From: a bacterium BMS3Bbin08
GTDB lineage: Bacteria; Nitrospirota; Thermodesulfovibrionia; UBA6902; BMS3Bbin08
NCBI GenBank assembly: GCA_002897775.1
Contig: BDTR01000032.1
Span: 5,556 to 69,555 of the forward strand
Direction of reading: 5' to 3'
Length of the DNA: 64,000 nucleotides
The stretch's first letter is position 1. Every line of letters begins with the position of its first letter. This document shows, piece by piece, positions 9,696-38,528 of the stretch. The translations under genes were made by a program, and so were the position numbers. The notes below the pieces were generated by a model. That model saw only the letters and a program-made list of their open reading frames with translations. It searched no databases and had not been told where the DNA came from.

Positions 9696-10043
9696 ATGAT
9701 TATGGAACAGAATGTTTTTCTTGTTATCAGCAGTGATGTGATGGGAAAGGATGAGGATATAGGCAGGGCGGTAATAAAGAATTTTTTTGAGACTGTAAAG
9801 GCTACAAAAGAAATACCCCATACTATCTTTTTTGTAAATGCCGGGGTAAAGCTTACGACTGTAAACGAGGAGACAATAGCCATTCTCAAGGACATTGCAG
9901 AACTGGGAACAGAAATGTACTCATGCGGCACATGTCTGAAACATTATGACCTTGAAGACAAGATAAATGTCGGCAACAGGGGCGCTTCTACCCAGGTGGT
10001 CGAGGCGCTTAATGATTTCAAAAAAGTAGTATGGGTAGGGTAG
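9696..10043 (+). CDS. DsrE/DsrF-like (YedF C-terminal-like) sulfur/selenium-relay family protein
   Basis: About 115 aa from the ATG at 9696 after AGGAGG. DsrE-like fold with conserved Cys (MYSCGTCLKHYD). Sits next to the selC-like tRNA and selD. Confidence 0.5.
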   Translation: MIMEQNVFLVISSDVMGKDEDIGRAVIKNFFETVKATKEIPHTIFFVNAGVKLTTVNEETIAILKDIAELGTEMYSCGTCLKHYDLEDKINVGNRGASTQVVEALNDFKKVVWVG

Positions 10044-10113: not shown

Positions 10114-10242
10114 TCACTCTAACATCATAGCAGAGTGCCACGGGCTTGCCCGTGGGAATCTGCTAACCTTATTGCTTTTTACGTTCAGATAGAAATTGCA
10201 GCCTGTCCCGCAATATGTGCATGTAGTCCTGACCTTTTCCAT
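10114..10242 (-). pseudogene. 42-codon remnant of a molybdopterin oxidoreductase (formate-dehydrogenase-like) N-terminus
   Basis: Translation MEKVRTTCTYCGTGCNFYLNVKSNKV... carries the CxxCxxxC 4Fe-4S motif that opens Mo-bisPGD enzymes such as FdhF. It stops after 42 codons and nothing continues in any frame. Preceded by AAGGAG. The ORF-track call 10114..10326 is an upstream extension that overlaps the tRNA. Confidence 0.45.
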
Positions 10243-10270: not shown

Positions 10271-10367
10271 TGGAGAGGGGAAGTGGGAATTGAACCCACC
10301 AGGACATTTTCTGAATATCCTGTCACTGGTTTTGCAGACCAGGAGGAACACCAGTTCCATACCCCTC
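10271..10367 (-). tRNA. tRNA-Sec-like tRNA with Cys anticodon GCA and U73 (selC-like tRNA-Cys), 97 nt including CCA
   Basis: Manual fold of the reverse complement: 8-bp acceptor stem (GAGGGGUA/UUCCCCUC, one U.U), 6-bp D-stem (GGAAC/GUUCC plus terminal U.U) with 4-nt loop UGGU, 5-bp anticodon stem CUGGU/ACCAG with loop CUGCAAA (anticodon GCA), roughly 26-nt variable arm with a CAGGA/UCCUG stem, 5-bp T-stem GUGGG/CCCAC with loop UUCAAUU, discriminator U, encoded CCA. Confidence 0.75.
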
Positions 10368-10534
10368 ATACAATTAATGACTAACAGGTTTTTTGGCGCT
10401 ACTTCAGCGAAAATCCGTCTTGCACACGCTGACCTCTGTGACTGTAAACAATACGGTCCATCTCCTTTTTGTTTTTGAATGGCTTTAGGCTATCCCTGGA
10501 ACAGCCTTGAAGAATCGGAATATATAATATATTC

Positions 10535-10562
10535 TATAGGCATGTCAAATAGATTTATTTTA
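10535..10562 (+). promoter_or_regulatory. conserved 28-nt motif, copy 1 (TATAGGCATGTCAAATAGATTTATTTTA), about 115 nt upstream of the LysR gene
   Basis: 26/28 identical to 12694..12721, in the same orientation. Both lie in AT-rich promoter regions. Confidence 0.45.
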
Positions 10563-10676: not shown

Positions 10677-11564
10677 ATGGATATACAACATTTAAAGATA
10701 TTTATCTCAGTTTATAAAAACAGGGGTTTCTCAAAGGCGGCTGTAGAACTCCACCTAAGCCAACCGACTATCAGTGAACATATAAAAAATCTGGAGTTTG
10801 AGCTTGGCTGTAAACTCTTTGACAGAGTTGGGCGCACTATTATTCCGACTAGAGAGGCGGGTATCATATATCCAAAGGCATTACAAATAATAGAAGACCT
10901 TGAAAAACTAAGGGAAGAACTGTCTCATGCCGGAAGTAATATAAAAGGGCAACTGATTCTGGGAGCAAGCACCATCCCCGGTACATACATCCTGCCGGTC
11001 ATGGCATCGGAGTTTAAGAAGCTGTACCCCGAGGTCTCATTTGAAATAATAATAGAGGATTCAAGAAAGATTACTGATATGGTCTTAAATTATGATCTGA
11101 TACTCGGTGCAGTAGGGGCTGAAATGGAACCGGGGAAAATTAACTATCTGCCTTTTATAGAGGATGAGCTGATACTTGCAGCCGGTGAAAAAGTTATTCC
11201 AAAAAATACCATAAGTGTGAAGGGATTAAAAGATGTCCCGTTTATCTTGAGGGAAGAAGGATCCGGAACGCTTAAAACAATGGAGCGTTTTCTAAATAAA
11301 AAGGGGATAGATATCGGGGAATTAAATGTTGTTGCAGTGCTTGGCTCTACCGACTCAGTGAAACAGGCAATAAAGTCAGGACTTGGTGCGTCAATATTAT
11401 CGAGGATTGCTATTAAGGACGAGTTGACTTGCGGGGCATTGAAGGAGATAAGGATAAGAGGGCTGAAAATGAAAAGGAGCTTTTATCTGATTACTCATAA
11501 AAAACGTGCTTTACCGAATCCTTACAATGCATTTTACAACTATCTGAAAGATTCAAAGCGATAG
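10677..11564 (+). CDS. LysR-family transcriptional regulator
   Basis: 295 aa. N-terminal wHTH (FSKAAVELHLSQPTISEHIKNLE) plus a C-terminal LysR substrate-binding domain. Confidence 0.85.
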   Translation: MDIQHLKIFISVYKNRGFSKAAVELHLSQPTISEHIKNLEFELGCKLFDRVGRTIIPTREAGIIYPKALQIIEDLEKLREELSHAGSNIKGQLILGASTIPGTYILPVMASEFKKLYPEVSFEIIIEDSRKITDMVLNYDLILGAVGAEMEPGKINYLPFIEDELILAAGEKVIPKNTISVKGLKDVPFILREEGSGTLKTMERFLNKKGIDIGELNVVAVLGSTDSVKQAIKSGLGASILSRIAIKDELTCGALKEIRIRGLKMKRSFYLITHKKRALPNPYNAFYNYLKDSKR

Positions 11565-11600: not shown

Positions 11601-12650
11601 TTAACTGATCTGTACACATGGTTGATTACCGCCTGCTACTTCACCAATTAAAACAGCAGACTCAATTCCTTCATTCTTCAATTTTTCTATTAGAATTGAT
11701 GCATGAGAGTTTTTGACTGAGAGGAGAAGCCCTCCTGAGGTCTGAGGATCAAAAAGCAATTCTTCTTCCTCTGAAGAGAGTTTTATCTTTATCTCTAAAA
11801 ATCCCTCGGACAATTCTCTGTTCGGTTTATTGCTGCCCGTGGTCACTCCCTTGCGATACATTTCTATGGCATTCGGGAAAATAGGCAGATTTCTATAAAA
11901 CAGGTTTATCTGCATTTTACTGCCCTTCGCAATCTCCAGTGCATGTCCGACAATACCAAAACCCGTTACATCAGTACATGAGTGAATGTCGAATTTCAAG
12001 GCTGTCTCAATGGCTTTACCATTAAGAAAAGCTATCCAGGGGAGCAGGGGCTCCAGTTTTTTAAAGGGCAGCTTTTTGGAGCGGCAGGCGTTGAAGAGCA
12101 CGCCGGTCCCCAGCGGTTTAGTAAGAATCAGTGCATCTCCCTCGCGAGCGTCGCAGTTGGTGAGTATCCGCTCAGGGTGAACTATCCCTGTAACCGCAAG
12201 GCCGTACTTCGGCTCATTGTCGTCAACCGAATGGCCTCCGGCCATGGAAGCGCCGGCTTCGATTACTTTATCACTTCCTCCGCGGAGTATCTCTTTTAAT
12301 ATTCCGATGTCAAGCTGCTTTGAAGGGAACATCACAACATTCAGGGCTGTAAGGGGTTTGCCGCCCATTGCGTAAACGTCGGAAAGAGAATTAGCTGCAG
12401 AAATCTGCCCAAACCAGTACGGATCATCCACCGGCGGAGTAATATAGTCGACAGTAGATATTACGGCAATATCAGGTGAAAGGCGGTATACAGCCGCATC
12501 ATCGCTGGTTTCGAAACCTACTAACAGGTCAGGATCATCCGGGGTTTGAATCGATCCGAGCGCAGCCGACAGAACTGTCGGGCCAATTTTTGCAGCTCAC
12601 CCGCAGGTTCTTGCGAGACCTGGTAAGGTTTTTTTCTTAAAAAAAGTCAT
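11601..12650 (-). CDS. selD: selenophosphate synthetase (selenide, water dikinase), selenoprotein form with in-frame UGA (Sec) at 12597-12599
   Basis: The ORF track begins at an internal GTG (12431). Extending upstream gives MTFFKKKTLPGLARTCG-U-AAKIGPTVLSAALG...DPDLLVGFETSDDAAVYRL, which aligns with E. coli SelD GAGCGCKISPKVLETIL...DPNLLVGNETRDDAAVY with U at catalytic Cys17. ATG at 12650 after a GAGG RBS. No other stops between. Confidence 0.88.
12566..12582 (-). promoter_or_regulatory. candidate bacterial SECIS hairpin (CCGACAG-UU-CUGUCGG) 15-33 nt downstream of the selD UGA
   Basis: 7-bp stem with G/U in the apical region, at the spacing bacterial SECIS elements occupy downstream of UGA. 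Confidence 0.5.
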
Positions 12651-12693
12651 ATAACCTCACATTTAATAATTTATCGAAATAGTAAATAATAAC

Positions 12694-12721
12694 TATAGGA
12701 ATGTCAAATAGATATATTTTA
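12694..12721 (+). promoter_or_regulatory. conserved 28-nt motif, copy 2 (TATAGGAATGTCAAATAGATATATTTTA) in the selD/nikR divergent promoter region
   Basis: 44 nt upstream of the selD start and about 160 nt upstream of nikR. Matches 10535..10562. Confidence 0.45.
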
Positions 12722-12882: not shown

Positions 12883-13299
12883 ATGTCCACTGTAAGATTC
12901 GGCATATCACTTGAGAATTCCCTGCTTAAAGGGTTTGACAGCCTTATAAAGAAGAAGGGCTACGCGAGCAGGAGTGAAGCGATCAGGGATCTGATAAGGG
13001 ACAGCCTTGTAAAAGAAGAATGGGAGCATGGCAATAAGGACACGGTCGGGGCTATTTCAATTGTTTATTCGCACGGCACAAGGGAACTTAGCGATACACT
13101 GACCGATATCCAGCACAATTTCCATTCTTCAGTGGTTTCCTCTTTGCACGTTCACCTTGACCATCATAATTGCCTTGAGGTAATTATAGTCAGGGGAAAG
13201 GGCAGGGAGATCAAGAAAATAGCTGACAGGCTGATAGGCACAAGAGGCGTAAAGCACGGAAAGCTTTCTTTAACAACAACAGGGAAAGATCTGAAATAG
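12883..13299 (+). CDS. nikR: nickel-responsive transcriptional regulator NikR (RHH plus ACT-like metal-binding domain)
   Basis: 138 aa. N-terminal ribbon-helix-helix ([35 protein letters not shown]) and a C-terminal His/Cys-rich domain ([10 protein letters not shown]). Confidence 0.8.
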
Positions 13300-13347
13300 C
13301 CCCCGTTAGATTCTAACGAATCAGGACAAGGGGGATAATTTTTTATT
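13300..13347 (+). terminator. GC-clamped hairpin plus T-run (CCCCCG..GATTCTAACGAATC..GGGGG ATAATTTTTTATT) after nikR
   Basis: Stem and U-tract read directly. Shares CCCCGTTAGATTCT with the element after hemH. Could be an attenuator because the nik transporter genes follow on the same strand. Confidence 0.45.
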
Positions 13348-13460
13348 GCTTGGTAGCACAAATATAATAATAGTAACACTTTTCCGGAAGAGGAAGACGC
13401 AAGAGGGATTATTCAATCCCTGCGGGGACAGCATTTAAATCCAAATGAAGGAGGTCTGCT

Positions 13461-14498
13461 ATGCATATGGCAGATGCATTACTTTCGCCCGGCGTTGGAA
13501 CAACGTTCTGGGCAGGTTCGTTAGGGGTAATTGGTTACTGTGCGAAAAAACTGAGAGAAAATATAAATGAAAAAATGATTCCTTTGATGGGGATCCTGGC
13601 GGCATTTATATTTGCAGCCCAAATGATCAATTTTACAATTCCCGGTACCGGCTCAAGCGGCCACATCGGGGGTGGTATGATTCTTGTCATCATCCTGGGG
13701 CCCTATGCCGCGTTTATTGCCGTTGCTTCTGTGTTGACTGTCCAATGTCTTTTTTTTGCTGACGGGGGCATACTGGCGCTTGGATGTAACATATGGAACA
13801 TGGCCGTATATCCCTGTTTTATTGCTTACCCATTAATTTATGCGCCTCTCACCAAAGGAAATAAAACCCCGGGTAGGATCATGATCGCGTCAATATTGAG
13901 TGTTGTGGTCGCGTTGGAGTTTGGCGCGCTTTCCGTAGTTCTTCAAACGATGTTTTCAGGCAAGACAGAACTTCCCTTTACTACTTTTTTAGTTTTGATG
14001 CTTCCAATTCATTTCGCGATTGCCATCGGGGAGGGTTTTATAACGGGTGGTTTTGTAAATTATATCAGGGTTATAAAGCCTGAGGTTCTTGATGTAGTTG
14101 AAGGTTCCAGGGCATTTTCTGTTAAGAAAGTTCTTGTCAGTATTGGGATAGTTGCAATTATTACAGGTGGGATGCTGTCGTGGTTCGCTTCGACACATCC
14201 TGACGGACTTGAATGGTCCATAGAGAGGGTGTATGGGAAAGCAGTGCTTCCAGGGTACGAGACAGGGATTATTCCGGATTTGAGAGATATTCAGGAAAAG
14301 ACAGCAATTTTACCTGATTATAATTTTCCCGCTGGTAAGGAGGAAAAATCTGAGGGAGCTGCTGACTCCTGGCCAGCGGTTAACGCTGGAACTTCATTTT
14401 CCGGTATAATTGGCAGCCTGATGGTTCTTGGATTGGTTTTTATCCTTGGATTTGGTATAAATGCAGTGAAGAGTAAACGGCGAAACATGGTAATATGA
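13461..14498 (+). CDS. nikMN: ECF-type Ni/Co transporter substrate component, CbiM/NikM fused to a CbiN/NikN-like C-terminal segment
   Basis: 345 aa. CbiM-type N-terminus MHMADALLSPGVG and a multi-TM body. The C-terminal extension carries the PDGLEW motif. RBS AAGGAGG. Followed by Q and O components. Confidence 0.72.
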   Translation: MHMADALLSPGVGTTFWAGSLGVIGYCAKKLRENINEKMIPLMGILAAFIFAAQMINFTIPGTGSSGHIGGGMILVIILGPYAAFIAVASVLTVQCLFFADGGILALGCNIWNMAVYPCFIAYPLIYAPLTKGNKTPGRIMIASILSVVVALEFGALSVVLQTMFSGKTELPFTTFLVLMLPIHFAIAIGEGFITGGFVNYIRVIKPEVLDVVEGSRAFSVKKVLVSIGIVAIITGGMLSWFASTHPDGLEWSIERVYGKAVLPGYETGIIPDLRDIQEKTAILPDYNFPAGKEEKSEGAADSWPAVNAGTSFSGIIGSLMVLGLVFILGFGINAVKSKRRNMVI

Positions 14499-14570
14499 AA
14501 TGAATTTTGTGATCCGCTATAAGGTAATCGTTATTCGTATTAACTTATAGCTGATAACTGTCTTAATTTT

Positions 14571-15377
14571 ATGCCTTCTTTTGATAAAGAATATTTCAAT
14601 CTGGGTTATCTTGACACGTTGTCATATAAGGATACGTTTGTTCATAGGCTGGACCCGAGAATAAAACTGGTTACAACCTTTATCTTTATTTTGTTTGTAG
14701 TTTCGTTTCCAAAATATGAGATCCTTAAAATGTTGCCGTTCTTTTTTTTTCCTGTTTTTATCCTGTCAGTCGGTGAGATCCCGCTGAAATTTATCTTAAA
14801 GAAACTCCTTATTGCTTCGCCATTTGCTCTATTTGTGGGAATTTTTAATCCGTTCTTTGATACGGCGGCAATGTATAATTTTTACGGGATCCCGATCTCT
14901 GGTGGATGGGTGTCATATCTTTCTATTATAATAAAATTCATTTTGACCGTTACTGCCGCGTTACTCCTGGTTGCCACAACGTCGTTTCCTGGCGTCTGCT
15001 TAGCTCTTAAAAAACTAAAAGTTCCAAATGTATTTGTTGTTCAGCTCCTTTTTCTATACAGATACATGTTTGTTCTTACAGCAGAGACTATGCGAATAAT
15101 CCGAGCCAGGAACATGAGGTCATTCGGAAAGAAGGGGCGGGGTATGAAGACGCTTATCAGTATTATTGGAGTGCTTTTTGTGAGGACGGTAGAGCGTTCC
15201 GAAAGAATATACCAGGCGATGTGTTCAAGGGGGTTTGACGGTGAAATCAGACTTTTAACGAGTTATAAAATCGGGTTTGTTGATATTTCATTTGCTATCA
15301 CAGCAATTACTGTTTTTATTATATTCAGAGGATATGATGTAACAAAAACCCTCGGGGAATTAATAACTAAAACTTAA
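14571..15377 (+). CDS. nikQ: ECF transporter transmembrane (T) component CbiQ/NikQ
   Basis: 268 aa, multi-TM, CbiQ-like region including the RSFGKKGRG stretch. Confidence 0.72.
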   Translation: MPSFDKEYFNLGYLDTLSYKDTFVHRLDPRIKLVTTFIFILFVVSFPKYEILKMLPFFFFPVFILSVGEIPLKFILKKLLIASPFALFVGIFNPFFDTAAMYNFYGIPISGGWVSYLSIIIKFILTVTAALLLVATTSFPGVCLALKKLKVPNVFVVQLLFLYRYMFVLTAETMRIIRARNMRSFGKKGRGMKTLISIIGVLFVRTVERSERIYQAMCSRGFDGEIRLLTSYKIGFVDISFAITAITVFIIFRGYDVTKTLGELITKT

Positions 15378-15400
15378 AAATAAATCTGTAATTATTAATT

Positions 15401-16135
15401 ATGAGTCATCACATTATAGATTTTAAAAATGTCCATTTTAATTATCCTGACGGCACTGAGGCGTTAAAAGGCGTTACCTTCAGGATTACACATGGAGAGT
15501 CAGTCGGCATTGTAGGTGCCAATGGTGCCGGCAAGTCAACTCTGATTTTCCATATGAATGGTTATCTTCTACCTACAAAAGGGGCAATAATAATCGGCGA
15601 TGTCCAGTTGGGTAAAACTACACGAAATGAAATCAGGAAAAAAGTTGGAGTGGTTTTCCAGGATCCTGATGATCAGCTTTTTATGCCGACTGTTTTTGAT
15701 GATGTTTCCTTTGGTCCTTTGAACATGGGATTGACCAAAAATAGAGTTATAGAAAGGGTTACTGAGGCCTTAAACACGGTAGGTTGTTATGAATTAAAGG
15801 ACCGCCCGCCCCACCATCTTTCCTCGGGGCAGAAACGCGCTGTTTCCATAGCAACTGTTATAGCGATGCAGCCTGATATTCTTGTAATGGATGAACCTGC
15901 GGCAAGCCTGGACCCCAGATCACGCCGGCAGCTTATAGAACTCCTTAAGGAGTTCAAACATACAAAAATTATCGCTTCTCATGATCTTGATCTTATATTG
16001 GAAGTTTGCAAGAGATGTATTGTAATTGCTGATGGGAAGGTGCGCGCTGACGGGCTTACTGAAGAACTGCTTATGGATGAGAAATTACTTATTGAGAACA
16101 GCCTTGAGCTCCCGCTTTCTTTAAAAGGCAGATGA
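15401..16135 (+). CDS. nikO: ECF transporter ATPase CbiO/NikO
   Basis: 244 aa. Walker A GANGAGKST, signature LSSGQKR, Walker B ILVMDEP. Confidence 0.82.
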   Translation: MSHHIIDFKNVHFNYPDGTEALKGVTFRITHGESVGIVGANGAGKSTLIFHMNGYLLPTKGAIIIGDVQLGKTTRNEIRKKVGVVFQDPDDQLFMPTVFDDVSFGPLNMGLTKNRVIERVTEALNTVGCYELKDRPPHHLSSGQKRAVSIATVIAMQPDILVMDEPAASLDPRSRRQLIELLKEFKHTKIIASHDLDLILEVCKRCIVIADGKVRADGLTEELLMDEKLLIENSLELPLSLKGR

Positions 16136-16512: not shown

Positions 16513-17745
16513 ATGACTTTTATTATGCACAATTCATTATACGTCCATATCCCTTTCTGTCTGAAAAGATGTGTCTACTGCGACTTTGTATCCGGGATTT
16601 ATGACCCTCAAAAAGAAACCGCTTATATTAAAGCCCTGAAACAGGAAATAGTGAACATTCCTGATAATGTCTCTTTTGAAACGCTGTATATAGGCGGCGG
16701 CACGCCTACCGCGCTTTCAACAGGTTCTTTGAATGACCTGATCGCGCATATTTTTGAACAGTGTAAGTTCACTATAGATCATGAGGCAACAATAGAGGCC
16801 AACCCCGGAACTGTTGATATCAGGAAGTTAAAAGCGATCCTCTCTTCAGGGGTAAACCCCGAACTACCACAGGGGTACCAGCGGCTTCGCCGCGAGGCGA
16901 GCGGGGCGAACAGGATAAGCATAGGTGTCCAGTCTTTTAATGACGATGAGCTTAAAACTCTTGGCAGACTGCACACGGCTGAAGAGGCAGAAAAGGCGGG
17001 TTCTCTTGCAAAAGAAGCGGGGTTTAAAAACATAGGCATTGATCTTATTTACGGTATTCCGGGTCAGAGTGTTAACTCATGGATAAAGACGCTTGAGAAA
17101 GCAGTACAGCTTGAGCCAGACCACATTTCCACATATGAGCTGACCGTAGAGAGCGGCACACTGCTTTATGATCATATAGAAAAAGGCAGGCTGCAGGGGC
17201 CTGAAGAGGAAAAGATCATTGAGATGTATAACCATACAATTGACTTTTTAACCGCAAAAGGGTTTGTTCATTATGAGATATCCAATTTTTCCATGCCGGG
17301 GTATTTCTGCAGGCATAATCTTAATTACTGGGACAGGGGTGAGTATTACGGAGCCGGCCTGGGAGCCCACTCTTTTATTAACGGCAAAAGGTCATACAAT
17401 ACAGGTGATCTTGAGCATTACATACAGTCACTTTCAAAAAATGAGCTGCCTGTAGAAGGTTCAGAAGTCATAACCGCGGATAAGGCGCTGTTAGAGACTT
17501 TTTTTCTTGGTTTAAGGAAAACAGAAGGGATAAACCTGGAAAAACTGTCCGCGTCTTATGGTGAGGACATACAAAAGGTCTATGAGAAACAGATAAGAGA
17601 GCTTCAGCGGGCTGGATTGATAGAAACATATAGTTCATCCCGAGGTTTCGGGACAAGCCGTGTAACCAGTTCAGGAAATAATCGCATGAGGCTGACAAGG
17701 CAGGGGATCCTTCTTTCAAATGAGGTTTTTATCAGATTTATGTGA
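16513..17745 (+). CDS. hemW: radical SAM heme chaperone HemW / HemN-like coproporphyrinogen oxidase family protein
   Basis: 410 aa. Radical-SAM motif HIPFCLKRCVYCDF, a HemN-type body and the HemW-like C-terminal domain. Contains an internal insertion of about 22 aa. Confidence 0.72.
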   Translation: MTFIMHNSLYVHIPFCLKRCVYCDFVSGIYDPQKETAYIKALKQEIVNIPDNVSFETLYIGGGTPTALSTGSLNDLIAHIFEQCKFTIDHEATIEANPGTVDIRKLKAILSSGVNPELPQGYQRLRREASGANRISIGVQSFNDDELKTLGRLHTAEEAEKAGSLAKEAGFKNIGIDLIYGIPGQSVNSWIKTLEKAVQLEPDHISTYELTVESGTLLYDHIEKGRLQGPEEEKIIEMYNHTIDFLTAKGFVHYEISNFSMPGYFCRHNLNYWDRGEYYGAGLGAHSFINGKRSYNTGDLEHYIQSLSKNELPVEGSEVITADKALLETFFLGLRKTEGINLEKLSASYGEDIQKVYEKQIRELQRAGLIETYSSSRGFGTSRVTSSGNNRMRLTRQGILLSNEVFIRFM

Positions 17746-17845
17746 TCGCGCATTCAGCATAAGATATATCAAATATCTGTTCGCTTCCAGGCGTATAACC
17801 AATTGTTTTTCTTGTTTTTTTAACCTTTATATGTGAAAATTACTG

Positions 17846-18922
17846 ATGCCCTCTAAATTCGAACCAAAATGGATCGCCTGGGAAATAACCCGCAGGTGCA
17901 ATCTTAAATGTATCCACTGCCGTTCTTCTTCTGAGGCTGTGGTGGCGCAGCATCCTGACTTTTCCCTGCAGGAGGCCTTTAGAATTATTGATGACATTGC
18001 AGGCTACGCAAAGCCTGTTATTGTTCTTTCCGGAGGAGAGCCTCTGTTAAGAAAAGATTTTTTTGATATCGCGCAGTACGGAACACAAAAGGGTCTGAGA
18101 ATGTGTCTTGCCACGAACGGGACCCTGGTTAATGATGATGTTTGCGAGAAGATAAAAGAGTCCGGTATCAGGATGGTGTCCCTCAGCCTTGACGGGTCTG
18201 TGGCAGAAGTTCACGATGATTTCAGAAGCCAGAAGGGAGCATTCGCAAGCACGATAAAAGCGGCGGAATTATTCAAAAAACATAATATAGAATTTCTCAT
18301 TAATTCGTCTTTCACAAAACGTAATCAGAAGGAAATTCCAAAGGTTTACAAACTGGCCAAAGAGCTTGGCGCGACCGCGTGGTACATGTTCATGATCGTT
18401 CCGACCGGCAGGGGTGAAGAGATAATGAGCGAGCTTATTTCCAAAGAGGACTACGAGGACATACTTGAGTGGCATTACGAGATGGAGAAAAAAGAAGACG
18501 ATATTCTTGTTAGGCCCACCTGCGCGCCGCATTATTACAGGATCATCCTTCAGAAATCAAAGGAACAGGGAGAAAAGTTTGAACGCAGGTCTTTGAAGTT
18601 CTCCACCGGGGGCGCCAAAGGGTGTATCGCGGGCCAGCTTATCGCTTTGATCGATGTTGACGGGAATGTTCTGCCGTGCAGTTACTTCCCCAAATCAGCA
18701 GGCAATGTAAAGGAAAAATCTTTTAAGGATATATGGGAAAACTCAGAGCTTTTTAAGGAATTAAGGGATTTCAAAAAGTATAAGGGGAAGTGCGGTTCAT
18801 GTGAATATATAAATGTCTGCGGCGGCTGCAGGGCAAGATCATACTCTGTGTACGGCGACTATCTTGAAGAGGAGCCGTTCTGCACGTATGTACCACGCAG
18901 ATTAGCGCAGACTAAAAAATAA
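17846..18922 (+). CDS. radical SAM / SPASM-domain protein, AhbD/NirJ-like (putative anaerobic heme synthase, i.e. coproheme decarboxylase)
   Basis: 358 aa. CxxxCxxC motif ([12 protein letters not shown]) and a C-terminal SPASM Cys cluster ([17 protein letters not shown]). Sits among hemW, hemE, hemH and hemY. Confidence 0.62.
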
Positions 18923-18927
18923 CGCAG

Positions 18928-19116
18928 ATGATCACAGAAAAAAACACAGATAAAAACAAAAATTATATTTATGAAGATTTGACTTATAAAATAATAGGTG
19001 CAATTTATAACGTTCACCAAGAGTTGGGGAATGTACACAAAGAAAGTATTTATCATAAAGCCCTTGCAATAGAACTATCTGAGATAGGAACTCCTTGTCT
19101 TACGGAGGTAAAATGA
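18928..19116 (+). pseudogene. N-terminal fragment of a GxxExxY-family protein (62 aa of a family normally about 125 aa)
   Basis: Carries the GxxExxY signature (LTYKIIGAIYNVHQELGNVHKESIYHKALAIEL). It ends at the ATGA overlap with the hemE start and the C-terminal half is absent. Confidence 0.5.
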
Positions 19117-20156
19117 ACGATACATTTCTGAAAGCATGCAGGGGCGAGGCTGTTCCATACACTCCTGTGTGGATCATGAGGCAGGCAGGAAGATATTTGA
19201 AACAGTATCAGAAAATCAGAAAGAAGGTTGATTTCCTTACTCTTTGCAAGACCCCTGAGCTTGCGGCAGAGGTAACTATCCAGCCGATCGACGCACTTGG
19301 CGTTGACGCAGCGATCCTGTTCTCGGATATACTCATCCCTGTTGAAGCAATGGGCATGAAACTTAAATTCCTGGAAAAGAAGGGTCCGGTGCTTACGCCA
19401 CCTGTACGGAACGAAACTGCGCTTAAAAAACTGTCAGTACCACAGCCTGAGACTGATATGGGCTTTGTAATGGAGACCATAAAAATTTTACGGAAGGAAC
19501 TTGCGACCAGAGTTCCTTTGATAGGATTTTCAGGCGCACCTTTTACCACAGCCACTTATATGATTGAGGGCGGCACGTCAAAGAACTTCCTTCACACTAA
19601 GAGAATGATCTTCGAATCTCCGGCTTTGTACGCGTCTCTGATGAGTAAAGTAACCACGACTGTTCTTGAATATCTTAAAGCCCAGATAAAGGCCGGCGCT
19701 CAGGCTGTACAGCTTTTTGATACGTGGGCGGGGATATTCTCACCTTTGGACTACAGGGAGTATGTGTTTCCTTATGTCAGGGAGGTTATTAAGTCCCTGA
19801 AAAGCTGGCAGGCGGCTGAAAACATTCGTGTGCCGGTTATTTATTTTGTGGGCTCATGCAGTGGTCTGCTTGAAGAGATGAGAACATGCGGGGCTGACGT
19901 GATAGGAATTGACTGGAGAATTAATATTGATGACGCGATAAAACGGCTTGATAGTGATCTTTCAGTGCAGGGGAATCTTGATCCGTGCGCTTTGTTCATG
20001 CCGAAAGAAAAGATTCAGTACCGCGTAAAGGACATCCTGAAAAGAGCCTCCAGCGCGCGAGGACATATTTTTAATTTGGGTCATGGTGTTTTGCCTGAAA
20101 CTTCAGCAGAGAATGTAGCCTCAATGGTGGAGATGGTGCACAGCTTCAGCAGGTAA
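19113..20156 (+). CDS. hemE: uroporphyrinogen decarboxylase
   Basis: Begins MNDTFLKACRGEAVPYTPVWIMRQAGRYL, the canonical HemE N-terminus. ATG at 19113 after GGAGGT. Confidence 0.9.
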   Translation: MNDTFLKACRGEAVPYTPVWIMRQAGRYLKQYQKIRKKVDFLTLCKTPELAAEVTIQPIDALGVDAAILFSDILIPVEAMGMKLKFLEKKGPVLTPPVRNETALKKLSVPQPETDMGFVMETIKILRKELATRVPLIGFSGAPFTTATYMIEGGTSKNFLHTKRMIFESPALYASLMSKVTTTVLEYLKAQIKAGAQAVQLFDTWAGIFSPLDYREYVFPYVREVIKSLKSWQAAENIRVPVIYFVGSCSGLLEEMRTCGADVIGIDWRINIDDAIKRLDSDLSVQGNLDPCALFMPKEKIQYRVKDILKRASSARGHIFNLGHGVLPETSAENVASMVEMVHSFSR

Positions 20157-20232
20157 TATACCTAAAAATGTTAGAATAAAAAATTATGAGACCTGTGAAG
20201 GGCTTTTGGGAATTATCTCAATAAGGTAATGC

Positions 20233-22758
20233 ATGATAGAGCTCGGAACTGCCATTAAAGAAACACTGGACCTCGTAAAAGACGGTATCCTGTTTATAGA
20301 CAGGGAGTTCTCGGTAGTTTTTATTAATAAGGCCGCGGCAAAGCTGTTCGGCAAAAAAGAGCAGGATATTGTAGGACAGAACTGTGCCGCTATATTCCTT
20401 GAATCTTCACGGCCTGATCAAACCACTCCTTCCTTTCAATGTCCCTGCAGCGAGGTTCTGAAGACCGGGAATGCCATTTCCACTTTGTACCGCCTTTTCA
20501 CACCTGGGGCCGCGGAAAAAATTCTCCAGATAACCGCCTCGCCGGTTATTAATGAGAACGGGGAAACTATCCAGGTGCTCGAGATCATAAGGGATGTAAC
20601 GTCAGAGAAAAAGTCTGAGGAAGCGCTTCGTCAAAGCGAAGAAAAATTCAAATCACTCTCAGAAGAATCGCCGAACATGATCTATATAAACAAAAAAGGA
20701 CGAATTGTCTACGTAAATAGAATCTGTGAAGAAATAATGGGTTATACAAAAGAGGAATTTTATTCGGACCAGTTTGATTTTATGTGCCTGATCGCGCCGG
20801 AGTCTAAGGACATTGTAAAAGAGAACTTCAGCAGGCATATGAGAGGCGAAGAAATTACTTCCTATGGGTATAATCTTGTAACAAAAGGCGGCAGTGTATT
20901 AAATGCTATACATAATGCAAAGCTAATTAACTTCGAAGGGGAGAAAGCAATTCTCGGGATAGTAACAGATGTAACCGACCGCAAGCTTGCTGAGGGGAAG
21001 CTAAGAATAGCTATTACAACAGCTGAAGAAGAAAAGCTGAAATCAGAGGCAATTATTGCCAGTGTCGGTGATGCTCTGGGTATTGTTGATACCAACTTTA
21101 AAATTGTATATCAGAACCTGGTAAGCAAGAAAATGTTTGGTGATTTTTTTGGCCAATACTGTTATGAGGCATATCAGGGAAAAGACCAAGTCTGCGAAGG
21201 ATGCCCTGTATTCAAGGCCATGAAAGAGAACAAGATCCAGAGAGTAGAAAGAACCAGGTATACTGACGCCGGGACAATGTTCCTGGAGATCACGGCATCA
21301 CCTATGATAGATTCAGAAGGGAAAATCATAGGGGGTGTTGAAGTTGTCAGGGACATTACCGACCGCAAGAAGACTGAAGAGGATGTTCTTCATTATGGAG
21401 AGCGCCTGAGACTCTTACGAGAGATCGACCATGCCATAATTACTGCTCAGACAACTGATAAGATCGTTCGAGTGGCCCTAAACCATATCAAGGAGCTGGT
21501 GCCATGCATTCGGGCAAGTATTGTTTTGTTTGATTTCCAGACCGATCAGGCGGAACTGCTTGTTCTCTATTCTAAAGGCGAGACCCAGATTAAAGAGGGT
21601 GAAATTATCCAGATGAAAGAGTTCGGCGTCGATGAAAGTCTTCACTTCGGGGAAGTTCATGTTATTGAGGACTTAAAGACCCTTTCTAATCCATCGCGTG
21701 TTGACCGGCAACTGATCAAGGAAGGGGTGCGCTCATGCATAAATGTACCTATTATTCACCTTGATGAACTAATAGGTACTATTAATGTATGCAAAGATGC
21801 TCCTTCTGCCTTTACCTCAGAAGACGTTACAATTGCCAGTGAAGTCGCTGATCTTCTCGCAGTCACTATCCAGAGTAAGCGGGCTGATCAGGAGTTGAGA
21901 GAATCCGAAAAGAAGTACCGAGACCTCGCGGACAATGCCCTTGTAGGAATATATAAAAGTAATCTCAAGGGTGATATTCTTTATGTAAATGATGCGCTCT
22001 TAAAGATGAGTGAGTTTGAATCACTTGAGGAGATAATATCTTCGGGTCAACTGAGATTATACAGAAACCCAAAAGACAGAGAAAATTTTGTTGCAAAGCT
22101 TAAGGCAGACGGCAAAGTTGAAAACTTTGAAACCGAGATGCTTACAAAGACTGGCAAAGTAAAAAGAATACTTAAGACTTCAACACTTCGTGGAGAGATC
22201 ATATCAGGAATGATGATGGATGTTACAGAACTCAGACAGGCTGAGACAGCTGTCAAGGAATCAGAGGTATTTCTCGCTTCGATCCTTGAGGGCATTAAAG
22301 ACGGAGTGGTTGTTTTGGACAGAGAGTTTAAGATACTTTTTACAAACAAAGCTTATATAGAGCAATCCGTCTGTTCGTCCAAAGAAGTAAAAGGCAGATA
22401 TTGTTATGAGGTATCTTATGATCGGAATGAGCCCTGTTATCTTAAAGGTCGGGAGGGCACTGTAAAAAATGTGTTTGACAGCGGAATAAGCAGCAGAGAC
22501 ATCCGGCGAAAAGGCGAGCGATTTATGGAAATGACGGTATATCCGTTGAAGAACTCCGCTGGAGAAGTTACATCTGTTGTAGAGATAAGAAGAGATGTTA
22601 CAAGAAATATCCAGATGGACGAAGAACTAAAGGAAAGGGTTAGAGAGCTGGAGGAGTTCTATGATATGGCTGTCGGCAGAGAACTGAAAATGAAACAGCT
22701 TAAGGAAAATGTAGAAGCATTAAAAGAAGAACTTAAGAAAAACAAAAAAATAAGCTGA
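20233..22758 (+). CDS. multi-PAS/GAF sensor protein without a recognisable output domain, ending in a coiled coil
   Basis: 841 aa. At least four PAS-like modules and a GAF-like segment. Repeated Cys motifs (FQCPCSEV, CYEAYQGKDQVCEGCPVF, CYEVSYDRNEPCYLKG). No HisKA/HATPase, GGDEF or HTH. Confidence 0.7.
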   Translation: MIELGTAIKETLDLVKDGILFIDREFSVVFINKAAAKLFGKKEQDIVGQNCAAIFLESSRPDQTTPSFQCPCSEVLKTGNAISTLYRLFTPGAAEKILQITASPVINENGETIQVLEIIRDVTSEKKSEEALRQSEEKFKSLSEESPNMIYINKKGRIVYVNRICEEIMGYTKEEFYSDQFDFMCLIAPESKDIVKENFSRHMRGEEITSYGYNLVTKGGSVLNAIHNAKLINFEGEKAILGIVTDVTDRKLAEGKLRIAITTAEEEKLKSEAIIASVGDALGIVDTNFKIVYQNLVSKKMFGDFFGQYCYEAYQGKDQVCEGCPVFKAMKENKIQRVERTRYTDAGTMFLEITASPMIDSEGKIIGGVEVVRDITDRKKTEEDVLHYGERLRLLREIDHAIITAQTTDKIVRVALNHIKELVPCIRASIVLFDFQTDQAELLVLYSKGETQIKEGEIIQMKEFGVDESLHFGEVHVIEDLKTLSNPSRVDRQLIKEGVRSCINVPIIHLDELIGTINVCKDAPSAFTSEDVTIASEVADLLAVTIQSKRADQELRESEKKYRDLADNALVGIYKSNLKGDILYVNDALLKMSEFESLEEIISSGQLRLYRNPKDRENFVAKLKADGKVENFETEMLTKTGKVKRILKTSTLRGEIISGMMMDVTELRQAETAVKESEVFLASILEGIKDGVVVLDREFKILFTNKAYIEQSVCSSKEVKGRYCYEVSYDRNEPCYLKGREGTVKNVFDSGISSRDIRRKGERFMEMTVYPLKNSAGEVTSVVEIRRDVTRNIQMDEELKERVRELEEFYDMAVGRELKMKQLKENVEALKEELKKNKKIS

Positions 22759-22825
22759 TGTGTAAGTTGAATCATTAATTGGCGGCCTTCCTGAATTGTG
22801 CGGGTAGAGTGGCCCGGATACTACT

Positions 22826-23893
22826 TTGAGGGAGAATAACGGGAAAAGCATAGGTGTTGTTTTACTGAACCTCGGCGGACCGGATTCTTTAAGTTCCGTG
22901 CGTCCCTTCCTGTATAATCTGTTTTCTGACAGGGGCATTATCAGGCTCGGTCCTTCCTTTCTGCAGAAATCCATTGCATGGCTGATATCAGGGTACCGTT
23001 CGAAAAAATCAGAAGAAATGTACAGCCTGATAGGAGGCAAATCTCCAATATTTGAGATTACAACGGCCCAGGCTGAAGCGCTTGAGAAAGCACTAAATAC
23101 AGAAGTTGAGAAGATAGGAAGTTTGGAAGATAAGATATCCTCAACATCTCAGCCTCTCAATTTCTTAACTTCCTCTTTCAAGGTGTATGTGGGTATGCGC
23201 TACTGGTATCCATATATAAGCGACACAGTTGATAAGATTCGTAGTGATGGTATTGAACAAGTGGTTGTGTTAAGCCTTTACCCCCACTATTCAAAGGCAA
23301 CGACAGGTTCTTCAGTTGCCGAGTTTAAACGCGTGATTTCACGATTCACGATTCCCTCCAAACAGCCGGCGGGCAGGCACGATTCACGATTCACGGTCAA
23401 ATATATTGATCAGTGGTATGATTTTCCCCTGTATATTGACGCGCTTTCAGATCGTATTGCAGAGGGGATGTCAAAATTCAAAGGAAAGACTTTTGATATT
23501 CTATACAGCGCGCACAGTCTTCCTGAAAGCTTCATCAAACAGGGAGACCCGTACCTCGATCATATCAAATCAACCATAAAGGCAGTTAACCCGTCAATCG
23601 GCAAGTGGCATCTTTCTTTCCAGAGCAGGAGCGGGCCGGTCAAATGGTTACAGCCTGACACGGAAGAGACTATAATCAGGCTTGCAAAGGGCGGCGTCAA
23701 GAATTTACTGGTAGTGCCGATAAGTTTTGTATCTGACCATATAGAAACCCTCTATGAAATAGATATTTACTATAAAAAGATCGCAAAGAGTTATGGTATA
23801 AATTTAAAGAGATGTGAATCATTAAATTTATCCGAAAAATTCATAAACGCTCTTAAAGAGTTGGTACTGGAAAAACTAAAGGAGTCGGAATGA
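22826..23893 (+). CDS. hemH: ferrochelatase (proto- or coproporphyrin ferrochelatase)
   Basis: 355 aa. Opens GVVLLNLGGPDSL and ends with the ferrochelatase C-terminal core. Contains a short internal tandem duplication (SRFTIPSKQPAGRHDSRFTV). Confidence 0.85.
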   Translation: MRENNGKSIGVVLLNLGGPDSLSSVRPFLYNLFSDRGIIRLGPSFLQKSIAWLISGYRSKKSEEMYSLIGGKSPIFEITTAQAEALEKALNTEVEKIGSLEDKISSTSQPLNFLTSSFKVYVGMRYWYPYISDTVDKIRSDGIEQVVVLSLYPHYSKATTGSSVAEFKRVISRFTIPSKQPAGRHDSRFTVKYIDQWYDFPLYIDALSDRIAEGMSKFKGKTFDILYSAHSLPESFIKQGDPYLDHIKSTIKAVNPSIGKWHLSFQSRSGPVKWLQPDTEETIIRLAKGGVKNLLVVPISFVSDHIETLYEIDIYYKKIAKSYGINLKRCESLNLSEKFINALKELVLEKLKESE

Positions 23894-23911
23894 TCCCCGT
23901 TAGATTCTGCA

Positions 23912-23946
23912 CCCGCAGTTTTGTTGCAACAAAAACTGGACGCGGG
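23912..23946. repeat. GC-clamped near-palindromic hairpin after hemH (CCCGC-AGTTTTGTTGCAACAAAAACT-GGACGCGGG)
   Basis: Read directly. Preceded by CCCCGTTAGATTCT, which also follows nikR. Shares CTGGACGCGGG with the element after ilvC. Confidence 0.5.
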
Positions 23947-23993
23947 TGTAACAAAAAGCATCTGGACAACGGGGCAGGCGGAAAGAGGAAAAC

Positions 23994-28250: not shown

Positions 28251-28616
28251 CTCCCTCTCCGCCTTTCTGACGGACTGTTTAAGGTCATTGACCTTAAATG
28301 GTTTTGTGATAAAATCAAAAGCGCCCTTATTAATGGCCTCTTTTGCTATTGACTTTCTTCCGTATCCGGTAATAATGATCACCTTGACACTCGGGTTTTT
28401 CCCCCTGGCGATCTTTAACAGCTTCAGCCCGTCAACACCTTCCATCTTCAGGTCAGTAATGATAATGTCAAAAGTTTTTTTATCAAGCTCCATGATCGCG
28501 GACGCGCTTCTGGTAAAGGCCTCGACCTCGTATCCCTCTTTTTTAAACAGCCGTTTAAGTCTTTTCCCGACGATCGGCTCGTCATCCACGACCATAAGGT
28601 TTAATTTATTTTCCAC
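28236..28616 (-). CDS. single-domain response regulator (CheY-like receiver)
   Basis: 126 aa. MVVDDEPIVGKRL...DIIITDLKMEGVDG...KVIIITGYG...AFDFITKPF. A paralog of 35214..35603 and 46035..46403. Confidence 0.85.
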   Translation of the reverse strand: MENKLNLMVVDDEPIVGKRLKRLFKKEGYEVEAFTRSASAIMELDKKTFDIIITDLKMEGVDGLKLLKIARGKNPSVKVIIITGYGRKSIAKEAINKGAFDFITKPFKVNDLKQSVRKAERELRHK

Positions 28617-38469: not shown

Positions 38470-38528
38470 AGGATCGATAGGTCGACACCGTAAAAGTTAC
38501 GGTCTGATATTTTTGAGCCGGAGATAAC

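What the first reader, a model, noticed from the sequence alone, without database searches (positions are those of the whole stretch)
12431..12650. selD is a selenoprotein: the six-frame call is truncated, and the true N-terminus crosses an in-frame UGA with a SECIS-like hairpin
The ORF caller starts selD at an internal GTG (12431). Reading upstream on the minus strand gives 73 more codons from ATG 12650, with a GAGG RBS. That stretch contains TGA at 12599-12597 inside ...LARTCG-U-AAKIGPTVL... This aligns with the E. coli SelD motif GAGCGCKISPKVL, and the TGA falls exactly on catalytic Cys17, the position where Sec-containing SelD proteins carry U. The hairpin CCGACAG-UU-CUGUCGG begins 15 nt downstream (12582-12566), as expected for a bacterial SECIS. 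A Sec-dependent SelD implies an autoregulated selenium-utilisation trait.
Basis: partly seen in the sequence, partly recalled or inferred. Interest (0 to 1): 0.6.

Follow-up and report, generated by a model that had tools for sequence, protein, structure and literature searches.

The report
Selenocysteine-containing SelD, truncated by ORF callers

Summary
Confirmed and ordinary. On the minus strand, selD runs from ATG 12650 to the stop at 11601 (349 aa). It crosses one in-frame TGA at 12599-12597, and GTG 12431 is an internal codon. The TGA aligns with catalytic Cys17 of E. coli SelD and with the Sec/Cys site of Aquifex SelD.

All 80 relatives fetched from other species (64-85% identity) carry TGA at this codon, with a conserved N-terminus (KKKTLTGLSRTCG-U-AAKIGP) upstream of it. 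So does an independent MAG of the same species.

A hairpin follows the TGA: CCGACA-GUUC-UGUCGG at 12581-12566, with its loop 21 nt after the UGA. It meets all four published bacterial SECIS constraints. It is 95% paired across 81 sequences and freezes the synonymous sites inside it.

SelD is the second most widespread bacterial selenoprotein family, so this is a new member of a known kind.

Caveats: no selA, selB or UCA-anticodon selC lies in the window. The only tRNASec-like gene (10367-10271) has anticodon GCA and discriminator U73, which makes it a selC* tRNACys.

Side observations: a 21-nt promoter/operator-like motif is shared by selD and selC*, and an FdhA-like mini-ORF after the tRNA is unusually conserved.

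The parts
11601..12650 (-). Full selD coding sequence: 349 aa including Sec18, plus the stop codon.
   Evidence: Translation. TIGR00476 selD 361.9 bits and NF002098 319.6 bits. PDB SelD matches at E = 2.8e-64 and 4.3e-64.
12597..12599 (-). In-frame UGA, the selenocysteine codon (codon 18).
   Evidence: Aligns with E. coli Cys17 and the Aquifex Sec/Cys site. TGA in 80 of 80 relatives. Retained in the independent MAG L111.
12566..12581 (-). bSECIS upper hairpin CCGACA-GUUC-UGUCGG. The apical loop GUUC lies at 12575-12572.
   Evidence: Energy -7.3 kcal/mol, or -8.1 with the bulged extension. RNAalifold consensus. 94.9% of cells paired across 81 sequences. Synonymous sites frozen.
12557..12599 (-). 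Extended SECIS structure: a lower stem that pairs UGAGC/GCA with UGC/GCUCG and so includes the UGA.
   Evidence: MFE -15.3 kcal/mol. The lower helix is 78% paired in 81 sequences, so it is weaker than the upper one.
12429..12431 (-). Internal GTG (Val74) wrongly taken as the start by mechanical ORF calling.
   Evidence: The public gene calls for this contig and a sister MAG are 276 aa and 255 aa.
12655..12658 (-). Shine-Dalgarno-like GAGG, 4 nt before ATG 12650.
   Evidence: Read from the sequence.
12679..12707 (-). Sigma-70-like promoter of selD: TTGACA, 17 nt, TACTAT.
   Evidence: Promoter scan, 10 of 12 matches. This is a consensus match only.
12693..12713 (-). 21-nt motif ATCTATTTGACATTCCTATAG (dyad CTAT-N11-ATAG) overlapping the -35 box. 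Candidate operator.
   Evidence: The motif occurs exactly twice in the window, with 0 expected by chance. It is conserved upstream of selD in L018 and L087.
10677..11564 (+). Selenium-metabolism-associated LysR-family regulator, convergent with selD.
   Evidence: NF040786 LysR_Sec_metab scores 302.7 bits against a cut-off of 250. It is adjacent to selD in L018 and 8 other loci.
10534..10554 (-). Second copy of the 21-nt motif (ATCTATTTGACATGCCTATAG). It lies in the region upstream of lysR and drives the strand that carries the tRNA.
   Evidence: TTGACA, 18 nt, TATATT; 11 of 12 matches. A second copy sits in the same position next to lysR in L018 and L087.
10271..10367 (-). selC*-type tRNACys: tRNASec-shaped, anticodon GCA at 10335-10333, discriminator U at 10274, encoded CCA. 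It is not a UGA-reading tRNASec.
   Evidence: Rfam tRNA-Sec scores 56.7 bits against a gathering score of 47, with anticodon loop CUGCAAA. ARAGORN calls tRNA-Cys(gca). The cloverleaf fold has z = -3.97. The class definition is in PMC5389517.

Best explanation
selD encodes a selenocysteine-containing selenophosphate synthetase.

Translation starts at ATG 12650. At codon 18 the UGA is not read as stop. A hairpin in the mRNA just downstream acts as a bacterial SECIS element. It has a 6-bp upper stem and a GUUC tetraloop 21 nt after the UGA, plus a lower stem that includes the UGA. By the established mechanism, the SECIS recruits SelB carrying Sec-tRNASec, so that Sec is inserted into the N-terminal glycine-rich loop (C-G-U-A-A-K). 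This is the position held by catalytic Cys17 in E. coli SelD.

Shown here: the reading frame, the homology, the position of the UGA, its conservation, and the conservation of the hairpin at RNA level.

Inferred: SelB/tRNASec-dependent Sec insertion itself, and the positive-feedback consequence that SelD synthesis needs selenophosphate.
For: - Family: full-length SelD match (TIGR00476, 361.9 bits against a cut-off of 125, residues 12-316).
- Position: the UGA aligns with Cys17 of E. coli SelD and with the Sec/Cys site of Aquifex SelD. Lys21 aligns with Lys20.
- Conservation of the codon: 80 of 80 relatives from other species carry TGA at this codon.
- Coding upstream of the TGA: in the 12 codons before it, amino acids are mostly conserved. 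Entropy is at most 0.42 bits at 9 of 12 codons. Third positions are largely free, at 1.5-1.95 bits at four-fold sites. So the upstream stretch is translated in this frame.
- RNA-level constraint: inside the hairpin, the four-fold degenerate codons +5, +6, +9 and +10 have third-position entropy of 0.00-0.19 bits. Four-fold codons outside show 1.7-1.9 bits.
- Hairpin conservation: the upper helix is 94.9% paired in 81 sequences. Pair 22:31 occurs as A-U in 56, G-U in 18 and U-G in 6. The whole structure is 88.4% paired, against at most 44.8% when partners are slid. RNAalifold recovers the same hairpin.
- bSECIS model as restated in PMC13188914, all met: 4-nt loop, 6-bp stem, G then U at the start of the loop, 21-nt spacing, MFE -8.1 to -15.3 kcal/mol.
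- Not an assembly error: an independent MAG (L111, 99.1% identical) keeps the TGA while carrying a synonymous TGC to TGT change two codons upstream.
- No code reassignment: TGA ends 12 of 43 genes in the window.
- Literature: Sec-containing SelD with a bSECIS is documented (PMC4561486; PMC1794560; D. tiedjei selD with an opal codon at codon 15, PMC5389517).
Against: - No selA, selB or UCA-anticodon tRNASec was found in the 64-kb window. None was found in roughly 10 kb and 7 kb of the same contig or sister assembly beyond its ends.
- The only tRNASec-like gene has anticodon GCA and U73, so it cannot read UGA.
- The single-sequence fold is not better than shuffles.
- The window's hairpin has a C/C clash where 78 of 81 sequences have U-A, and it is accommodated as a bulge.
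- Covariation is thin. There is one pair with double changes, in 6 related sequences. Most of the support is conservation.
- There is no protein-level evidence.
Confidence: 0.95

Rival explanations
1. The UGA is decoded, but as cysteine or another standard amino acid rather than Sec. This could happen at least under selenium limitation, through a suppressor tRNA such as a selC*-type tRNACys, giving a Cys-SelD that bootstraps the pathway.
For: A selC*-type tRNA lies 1.2 kb from selD and shares a 21-nt promoter motif with it. Mukai et al. showed that a selC* tRNACys with anticodon UCA can suppress the opal codon of D. tiedjei selD and yield active enzyme in E. coli (PMC5389517).
Against: The tRNA in this window has anticodon GCA, not UCA, so it reads UGC/UGU and not UGA. 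The conserved SECIS hairpin is the signature of SelB-dependent Sec insertion. No cysS* or selB* gene is in the window.
Confidence: 0.03
2. The UGA is a true stop. The gene is a pseudogene or split gene, and any product starts at the internal GTG 12431. That is a 276-aa protein lacking the catalytic loop.
For: This is what mechanical ORF calling and the public gene calls give: 276 aa and 255 aa. No Sec machinery is visible in the window.
Against: The 17 codons upstream of the TGA and the 55 codons between it and the GTG are conserved as protein in 80 species. The truncated product would lack the Sec/Cys17 and Lys20 equivalents. There is no Shine-Dalgarno sequence before GTG 12431. A stop conserved at one codon across 80 species is not how pseudogenes look.
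Confidence: 0.01
3. The TGA is a sequencing or assembly error for TGC or TGT.
For: None, beyond the general possibility in metagenome assemblies.
Against: The same codon appears in three independent assemblies of the species (L081/L112, L082, L111) and in 80 other species.
Confidence: 0.005

Closest known systems
Sec-containing SelD of anaerobic bacteria, such as Desulfomonile tiedjei selD with an opal Sec codon at codon 15 (PMC5389517). SelD is the second most widespread prokaryotic selenoprotein family (PMC1794560, PMC13188914).
   Same: UGA at the catalytic position of the N-terminal loop, a SECIS hairpin inside the coding sequence just downstream, and the same clades among the relatives (Thermodesulfobacteriota, Nitrospirota).
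   Different: Nothing of substance. This copy is at most 85% identical to the species representatives searched. It is truncated in the public gene calls.
Aquifex aeolicus SelD (PDB 2yye/2zod).
   Same: E = 4.3e-64. The N-terminal motif R-S-S-G-C-A-A-K-V-G-P aligns with R-T-C-G-U-A-A-K-I-G-P. That the native Aquifex protein carries Sec at this site is from my own knowledge.
   Different: The window protein has Cys two residues before the Sec (C-G-U, invariant in 81 sequences). Aquifex has Ser there.
E. coli SelD (PDB 3u0o), the Cys form.
   Same: Same family and fold, E = 2.8e-64. The catalytic loop G-C17-G-C-K20 aligns with G-U18-A-A-K21.
   Different: It uses Cys, not Sec, and has no SECIS. 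E. coli has a second Cys at position 19 where this protein has Ala.
Bacterial SECIS consensus model (bSECISearch model as restated in PMC13188914). The E. coli fdhF SECIS is the archetype.
   Same: A stem-loop immediately 3' of the UGA, a small apical loop starting with G then U, 16-37 nt spacing, and MFE at or below -7.5 kcal/mol. All are met.
   Different: The sequence is family-specific. The loop consensus is G-N-N-C, and its second base varies (A, U or C) among relatives. SelB binding was not tested.
selC* tRNACys (Mukai et al. 2017, PMC5389517), for the neighbouring tRNA.
   Same: tRNASec-like shape, U73, anticodon GCA, and occurrence in anaerobes of Nitrospirae and delta-proteobacterial type.
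   Different: By my reading this one has an 8/5 acceptor/T arrangement with a U-U mismatch at the seventh acceptor pair, not the bulged 8/4 form described for delta-proteobacteria. No selB* or cysS* lies downstream. An FdhA-like mini-ORF follows instead.

Membership tests
SelD / selenide, water dikinase (TIGR00476) | Whole-protein match above the curated cut-off | tested here: met
   361.9 bits against a cut-off of 125. NF002098 scores 319.6 against 299.
SelD / selenide, water dikinase (TIGR00476) | N-terminal glycine-rich loop with catalytic Cys/Sec and Lys (E. coli C17, K20) | tested here: met
   Codon 18 (UGA) aligns with C17 and K21 with K20. The loop exists only in the extended reading.
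SelD / selenide, water dikinase (TIGR00476) | ATP-dependent selenophosphate synthesis | not testable with these tools
   Needs an enzyme assay.
Bacterial selenoprotein gene | In-frame UGA aligned with Cys or Sec in homologues, with coding conservation on both sides | tested here: met
   Cys in E. coli. TGA in 80 of 80 relatives. Amino acids are mostly conserved and third positions free in the 12 codons upstream.
Bacterial selenoprotein gene | UGA is otherwise a stop codon in the genome (no code 4/25) | tested here: met
   12 of 43 genes in the window end in TGA.
Bacterial selenoprotein gene | Sec-decoding machinery (selA, selB, selC with UCA) in the same genome | tested here: inconclusive
   None in the window or about 17 kb of flanking contig. 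The rest of the genome could not be read.
Bacterial selenoprotein gene | Selenium actually incorporated | not testable with these tools
   Needs 75Se labelling or mass spectrometry.
bSECIS (consensus model, PMC13188914) | 3-9 nt apical loop and 4-16 bp upper stem | tested here: met
   Loop GUUC (4 nt) and stem CCGACA/UGUCGG (6 bp).
bSECIS (consensus model, PMC13188914) | G in the first two loop positions, usually followed by G or U | tested here: met
   The loop starts G-U. The G (column 25) is invariant in 81 sequences.
bSECIS (consensus model, PMC13188914) | 16-37 nt between the UGA and the apical loop | tested here: met
   21 nt (12596-12576).
bSECIS (consensus model, PMC13188914) | MFE at or below -7.5 kcal/mol | tested here: met
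   -8.1 kcal/mol for the hairpin with bulge, and -15.3 with the lower stem. The bare 16-mer is -7.3.
bSECIS (consensus model, PMC13188914) | Binding by SelB and dependence of read-through on the hairpin | not testable with these tools
   Needs a reporter or binding assay.
Genuine tRNASec (selC), for the tRNA at 10367-10271 | Anticodon UCA and discriminator G73 | tested here: not met
   Anticodon GCA, discriminator U (sequence).
selC* tRNACys (PMC5389517) | tRNASec-like cloverleaf with U73 and a GCA or UCA anticodon | tested here: met
   Rfam tRNA-Sec scores 56.7 bits against 47, with a long V-arm and an 8-pair acceptor. U73 and GCA are read from the sequence.
selC* tRNACys (PMC5389517) | Charged with cysteine by CysRS | not testable with these tools
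   Needs an aminoacylation assay.
Selenium-metabolism-associated LysR regulator (NF040786) | Match above the curated cut-off and location next to selenium genes | tested here: met
   302.7 bits against a cut-off of 250. It is next to selD here and in 9 of 80 related loci.

The most novel reading that the evidence does not exclude
selD, the selC*-type tRNACys(GCA) and the unusually conserved FdhA-like mini-ORF behind the tRNA may form one selenium-responsive module. The adjacent LysR_Sec_metab regulator would control it through the shared CTAT-N11-ATAG operator. The tRNASec-shaped Cys tRNA would help to manage or bootstrap a SelD that needs its own product to be made, for example by supplying Cys through the Sec-type delivery route when selenium is scarce.

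The evidence shows the co-location, the shared motif in three genomes, and the conservation. It says nothing about function.
Probability: 0.1. Interest if true: 0.6.

Novelty: new member of a known kind. Interest (0 to 1): 0.2.

Why it matters
Practically, it corrects an annotation. The public gene calls for this contig and its sister MAG give a 276-aa or 255-aa SelD without its catalytic loop. The real product is a 349-aa selenoprotein.

It also marks the organism, an uncultured anaerobe whose closest relatives among the fetched loci are Nitrospirota- and Thermodesulfobacteriota-type MAGs, as a selenocysteine user. Biologically this is expected: Sec-SelD is one of the two most common bacterial selenoproteins.

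The more open questions lie beside the finding. One is what a tRNASec-shaped tRNACys with a Cys anticodon does next to selD. The other is whether the shared 21-nt motif is the operator of the selenium-associated LysR regulator.

Tried and rejected
- Single-sequence folding of the 66 nt after the UGA was not significant (z = -0.15). I therefore relied on comparative data.
- Rfam at gathering threshold over the whole window found only the tRNA-Sec match. No SECIS family was reported.
- I suspected that the YedF-like ORF (profile positions 79-194 only) hid a second Sec codon upstream. Translation shows stops and a proper start at ATG 9696 with an AGGAGG site. It is a stand-alone C-terminal domain, not a split selenoprotein.
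- I looked for selA and selB among 30 further ORFs of the window with Pfam, and in the gene tables of about 17 kb beyond the window ends. None was found.
- A crude scan for other long ORFs interrupted by a single TGA found only selD as a free-standing candidate. The rest overlap annotated genes on the other strand or in another frame.
- ARAGORN on the 80 selD loci found a long tRNA-Cys(gca) near selD in only one (L007). So the selC*-selD linkage is not general.
- Rfam with permissive thresholds on the tRNA and FdhA-like region gave nothing but the tRNA. The fold of the 231-nt region after the tRNA has z = -1.86, which is not convincing.
- The supplement of Mukai et al. 2017, which shows selC* gene contexts, is not held.
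- One call failed on a frame error, and the Pfam test of the FdhA-like fragment was not repeated.
- The large protein searches, structure prediction and fold search were not used, because the question was settled without them.

Full report
**Observation.** The minus strand between 12650 and 11601 reads as one frame of 350 codons with a single internal stop. Mechanical ORF listing starts the gene at GTG 12431, giving 276 aa. Reading upstream adds 73 codons from ATG 12650. A GAGG lies 4 nt before that ATG. An in-frame stop at 12659-12657 leaves no other start. The internal stop is TGA at 12599-12597, in the context ...LARTCG-TGA-AAKIGPTVL...

**What the protein is.** With a placeholder at codon 18, the product matches the SelD equivalog TIGR00476 at 361.9 bits against a cut-off of 125, over residues 12-316. 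It also matches solved SelD structures: E. coli 3u0o at E = 2.8e-64 and Aquifex 2yye at 4.3e-64. In those alignments codon 18 falls on Cys17 of E. coli SelD and on the Cys of the Aquifex construct. Lys21 falls on Lys20. The product that starts at GTG 12431 would lack this catalytic loop altogether.

**Is the TGA real and conserved?**
- A scan of one genome per species returned 80 loci encoding SelD at 64-85% identity. Most are Thermodesulfobacteriota, Desulfobacterales and Nitrospirota/Thermodesulfovibrionales MAGs. All 80 have TGA at the aligned codon, within the consensus KKKTLTGLSRTCG-TGA-AAKIGP.
- In the twelve codons upstream of the TGA, amino acids are mostly conserved, with entropy at most 0.42 bits at 9 of 12 codons. 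Third codon positions are largely free, at 1.5-1.95 bits at four-fold sites. This is the signature of translation in this frame upstream of the "stop".
- The window is part of a 101-kb metagenome contig (ENA ERZ1742238, NODE_77). An independent MAG of the same species (NCBI GCA_002897755.1, locus L111) is 99.1% identical over the region. It keeps the TGA while carrying a synonymous TGC to TGT change two codons upstream. A sequencing error is excluded.
- TGA terminates 12 of 43 genes in the window, so the codon is not globally reassigned.

**The hairpin.**
The real element is CCGACA-GUUC-UGUCGG at 12581-12566, at -7.3 kcal/mol. With a bulged extension it is -8.1 kcal/mol. With a lower stem that pairs the UGA region itself (12599-12557) it is -15.3 kcal/mol.
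- Chance: alone, the 66-nt region folds no better than shuffles (z = -0.15). The window by itself does not prove the structure.
- Comparison: the first 60 nt from the TGA align without gaps in 81 sequences. RNAalifold predicts the same hairpin.
- Pairing: for the structure I specified, the upper helix is 94.9% paired. The whole structure is 88.4% paired, against at most 44.8% when the 3' partners are slid. One pair occurs as A-U in 56 sequences, G-U in 18 and U-G in 6, with the pair kept. Those six sequences also switch the encoded peptide from GPT..LS to GPS..LA, so the RNA pairing shapes the protein.
- Strongest argument: the four-fold degenerate codons inside the stem (Gly+5, Pro+6, Leu+9, Ser+10) have third-position entropies of 0.19, 0.10, 0.10 and 0.00 bits. 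Four-fold codons outside show 1.7-1.9 bits.
- Model: the element meets the published bSECIS constraints: loop 3-9 nt, stem 4-16 bp, G in the first two loop positions, 16-37 nt from the UGA, MFE at or below -7.5 kcal/mol (PMC13188914). Here these are a 4-nt loop starting G-U, a 6-bp stem, and a 21-nt spacing.
- Departure: the window has a C/C clash where 78 of 81 sequences have U-A. It is absorbed as a bulge.

**Mechanism.** The best explanation is standard bacterial selenocysteine insertion. The SECIS recruits SelB carrying Sec-tRNASec to the UGA and places Sec in the selenium-binding N-terminal loop. The frame, homology, conservation and RNA constraint are shown here. The SelB step and actual selenium incorporation are inferred from the established mechanism. 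The feedback idea, that SelD needs selenophosphate to be made, follows logically but was not tested.

**What is missing.**
- No selA or selB was found among the window's ORFs.
- Rfam finds a single tRNASec-like gene at 10367-10275 on the minus strand. Its anticodon loop is CUGCAAA, so the anticodon is GCA. The base after the acceptor stem is U, followed by an encoded CCA. ARAGORN calls it tRNA-Cys.
- This is the selC* tRNACys class described by Mukai et al. 2017: tRNASec-shaped, with U73 and a GCA or UCA anticodon, found in anaerobes including Nitrospirae (PMC5389517). With GCA it cannot read UGA, so the true selC must lie elsewhere.
- About 10 kb beyond one end of the window (in sister assemblies of the species) and 7 kb beyond the other (in the same contig) also lack the machinery. 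This leaves one membership criterion open. It does not weigh much against 80-species conservation.

**Comparison with what is known.** Sec-containing SelD is textbook for this field.
- FdhA and SelD are the two most widespread bacterial selenoproteins (PMC1794560).
- SelD is called the second largest prokaryotic selenoprotein family, with Sec in its N-terminal loop (PMC13188914).
- The bSECIS of Sec-SelD genes has been recovered computationally (PMC4561486).
- D. tiedjei selD, with an opal codon at position 15, has served as a reporter (PMC5389517).

The present gene is therefore a new member of a known kind, and its truncation by gene callers is the usual artefact.

**Side observations.**
1. 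A 21-nt motif, ATCTATTTGACAT[G/T]CCTATAG, occurs exactly twice in 64 kb, with 0 expected by chance. One copy overlaps the -35 box of the selD promoter (12713-12693). The other overlaps the -35 box of the promoter that faces the selC* tRNA, in the region upstream of lysR (10554-10534).
   - The motif contains the dyad CTAT-N11-ATAG, which fits the T-N11-A pattern of LysR-type operators. That pattern is from my own knowledge.
   - The same pair of sites, upstream of selD and next to lysR, is present in two other genomes, L018 and L087.
   - The adjacent regulator matches the selenium-metabolism-associated LysR model.
2. The syntenic locus L087 differs from the window by 18-25% in neighbouring genes. 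Yet the tRNA and the 110 nt that follow are 222 of 223 identical. Those 110 nt include a ribosome-binding site and the first 28 codons of an ORF resembling the N-terminus of formate dehydrogenase (MEKVRTTCTYCGTGCNFYLNVKSNKV). Two window-specific insertions of 83 and 41 nt interrupt the similarity. I have no tested explanation.
3. Metagenome relatives of this tRNA are often followed by yedF or by yedE plus yedF, with the LysR gene nearby (gene identities read from ORF sequences, not profile-tested). The link between selC* and selenium-metabolism genes therefore recurs.

**Verdict.** The finding is ordinary for the field. Interest is low for the finding itself and moderate for the unexplained neighbours.

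Noticed in passing
window 10271-10367 (-): The only tRNASec-like gene in the window (Rfam tRNA-Sec, 56.7 bits) has anticodon GCA and discriminator U73 with an encoded CCA. It is a selC*-type tRNACys (Mukai 2017), not a UGA-reading tRNASec. It has an 8-pair acceptor with a U-U mismatch, a 5-bp T stem and a 9-bp variable arm.
   Followed up: partly
window 12693-12713 (-) and 10534-10554 (-): A 21-nt motif, ATCTATTTGACAT[G/T]CCTATAG (dyad CTAT-N11-ATAG, containing a TTGACA -35 box), occurs exactly twice. One copy is upstream of selD. The other is in the lysR-upstream region facing the selC* tRNA. The same pair of sites is present in L018 and L087. It is a candidate operator of the selenium-associated LysR regulator.
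   Followed up: partly
window 10114-10242 (-); compare L087 1150-1640: A 42-codon ORF with a strong ribosome-binding site directly follows the tRNA and resembles the N-terminus of formate dehydrogenase alpha (MEKVRTTCTYCGTGCNFYL..., three UGC codons). The tRNA plus the next 110 nt are 222 of 223 identical to L087, whose flanking genes are only 75-82% identical. In L087 the ORF stays in frame for 50 codons. This is unexplained.
   Followed up: partly
window 10121-10161 (-) and 10385-10467 (-): Two insertions relative to L087. One is 41 nt, lies inside the FdhA-like ORF, and carries the perfect palindrome CCACGGGC/GCCCGTGG. The other is 83 nt, lies upstream of the tRNA, and carries a ribosome-binding site and a 20-codon ORF (MDRIVYSHRGQRVQDGFSLK).
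   Followed up: no
window 10677-11564 (+): A selenium-metabolism-associated LysR-family regulator (NF040786, 302.7 bits) is convergent with selD, with 36 nt between the two stop codons. It is also adjacent to selD in L018 (82% identity) and 8 other related loci.
   Followed up: partly
window 9696-10043 (+): A 115-aa protein matches only the C-terminal (DsrE-like) half of the selenium-metabolism protein YedF (TIGR03527 positions 79-194). It has its own AGGAGG site and ATG, with no upstream TGA. It is a stand-alone domain carrying an S-C-G-T-C motif.
   Followed up: yes
L095, L102, L103 (yedF); L096, L097 (yedE then yedF); L083, L100, L101 (tRNA clusters): Metagenome relatives of the selC*-like tRNA are often directly followed by yedF or by yedE plus yedF, with the LysR gene nearby in L103. 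Others sit inside ordinary tRNA gene clusters. The gene identities were read from the ORF sequences and were not profile-tested.
   Followed up: partly
L007 7913-8004 and 20271-20364: One selD relative carries both a long tRNA-Cys(gca), immediately followed by a SelB-like GTPase gene, and a genuine tRNA-Sec(tca) about 12 kb away. This is the selC*/selB* arrangement described in the literature.
   Followed up: no
window 12603-12605 (-), and 81 aligned sequences: A Cys two residues before the Sec (the C-G-U motif) is invariant in all 81 sequences (TGC in 65, TGT in 16). E. coli has Ala and Aquifex has Ser at that position. A possible selenenylsulfide partner is speculation.
   Followed up: no
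window 12883-16135 (+): Divergent from selD lie NikR and a CbiM gene (both by NCBIfam). The next two genes are CbiQ and an ABC ATPase by the Pfam tags of the public gene calls. Together they form a nickel/cobalt ECF transporter cluster.
   Followed up: no
window 16513-25370 (+): A run of haem-biosynthesis-type genes: a HemN-like radical SAM, a radical SAM/SPASM protein, uroporphyrinogen decarboxylase, ferrochelatase and a flavin amine-oxidase-type (HemY-like) protein. A PAS/GAF sensor gene interrupts the run.
   Followed up: no
window 35812-41129 (+); 28616-30385 (-) and 44321-46048 (+): Two tandem paralogues with pyruvate-phosphate-dikinase N-terminal and PEP-utilising domains (885 and 866 aa). 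Also two HAMP-HisKA-HATPase histidine kinases of nearly identical architecture (589 and 575 aa).
   Followed up: no
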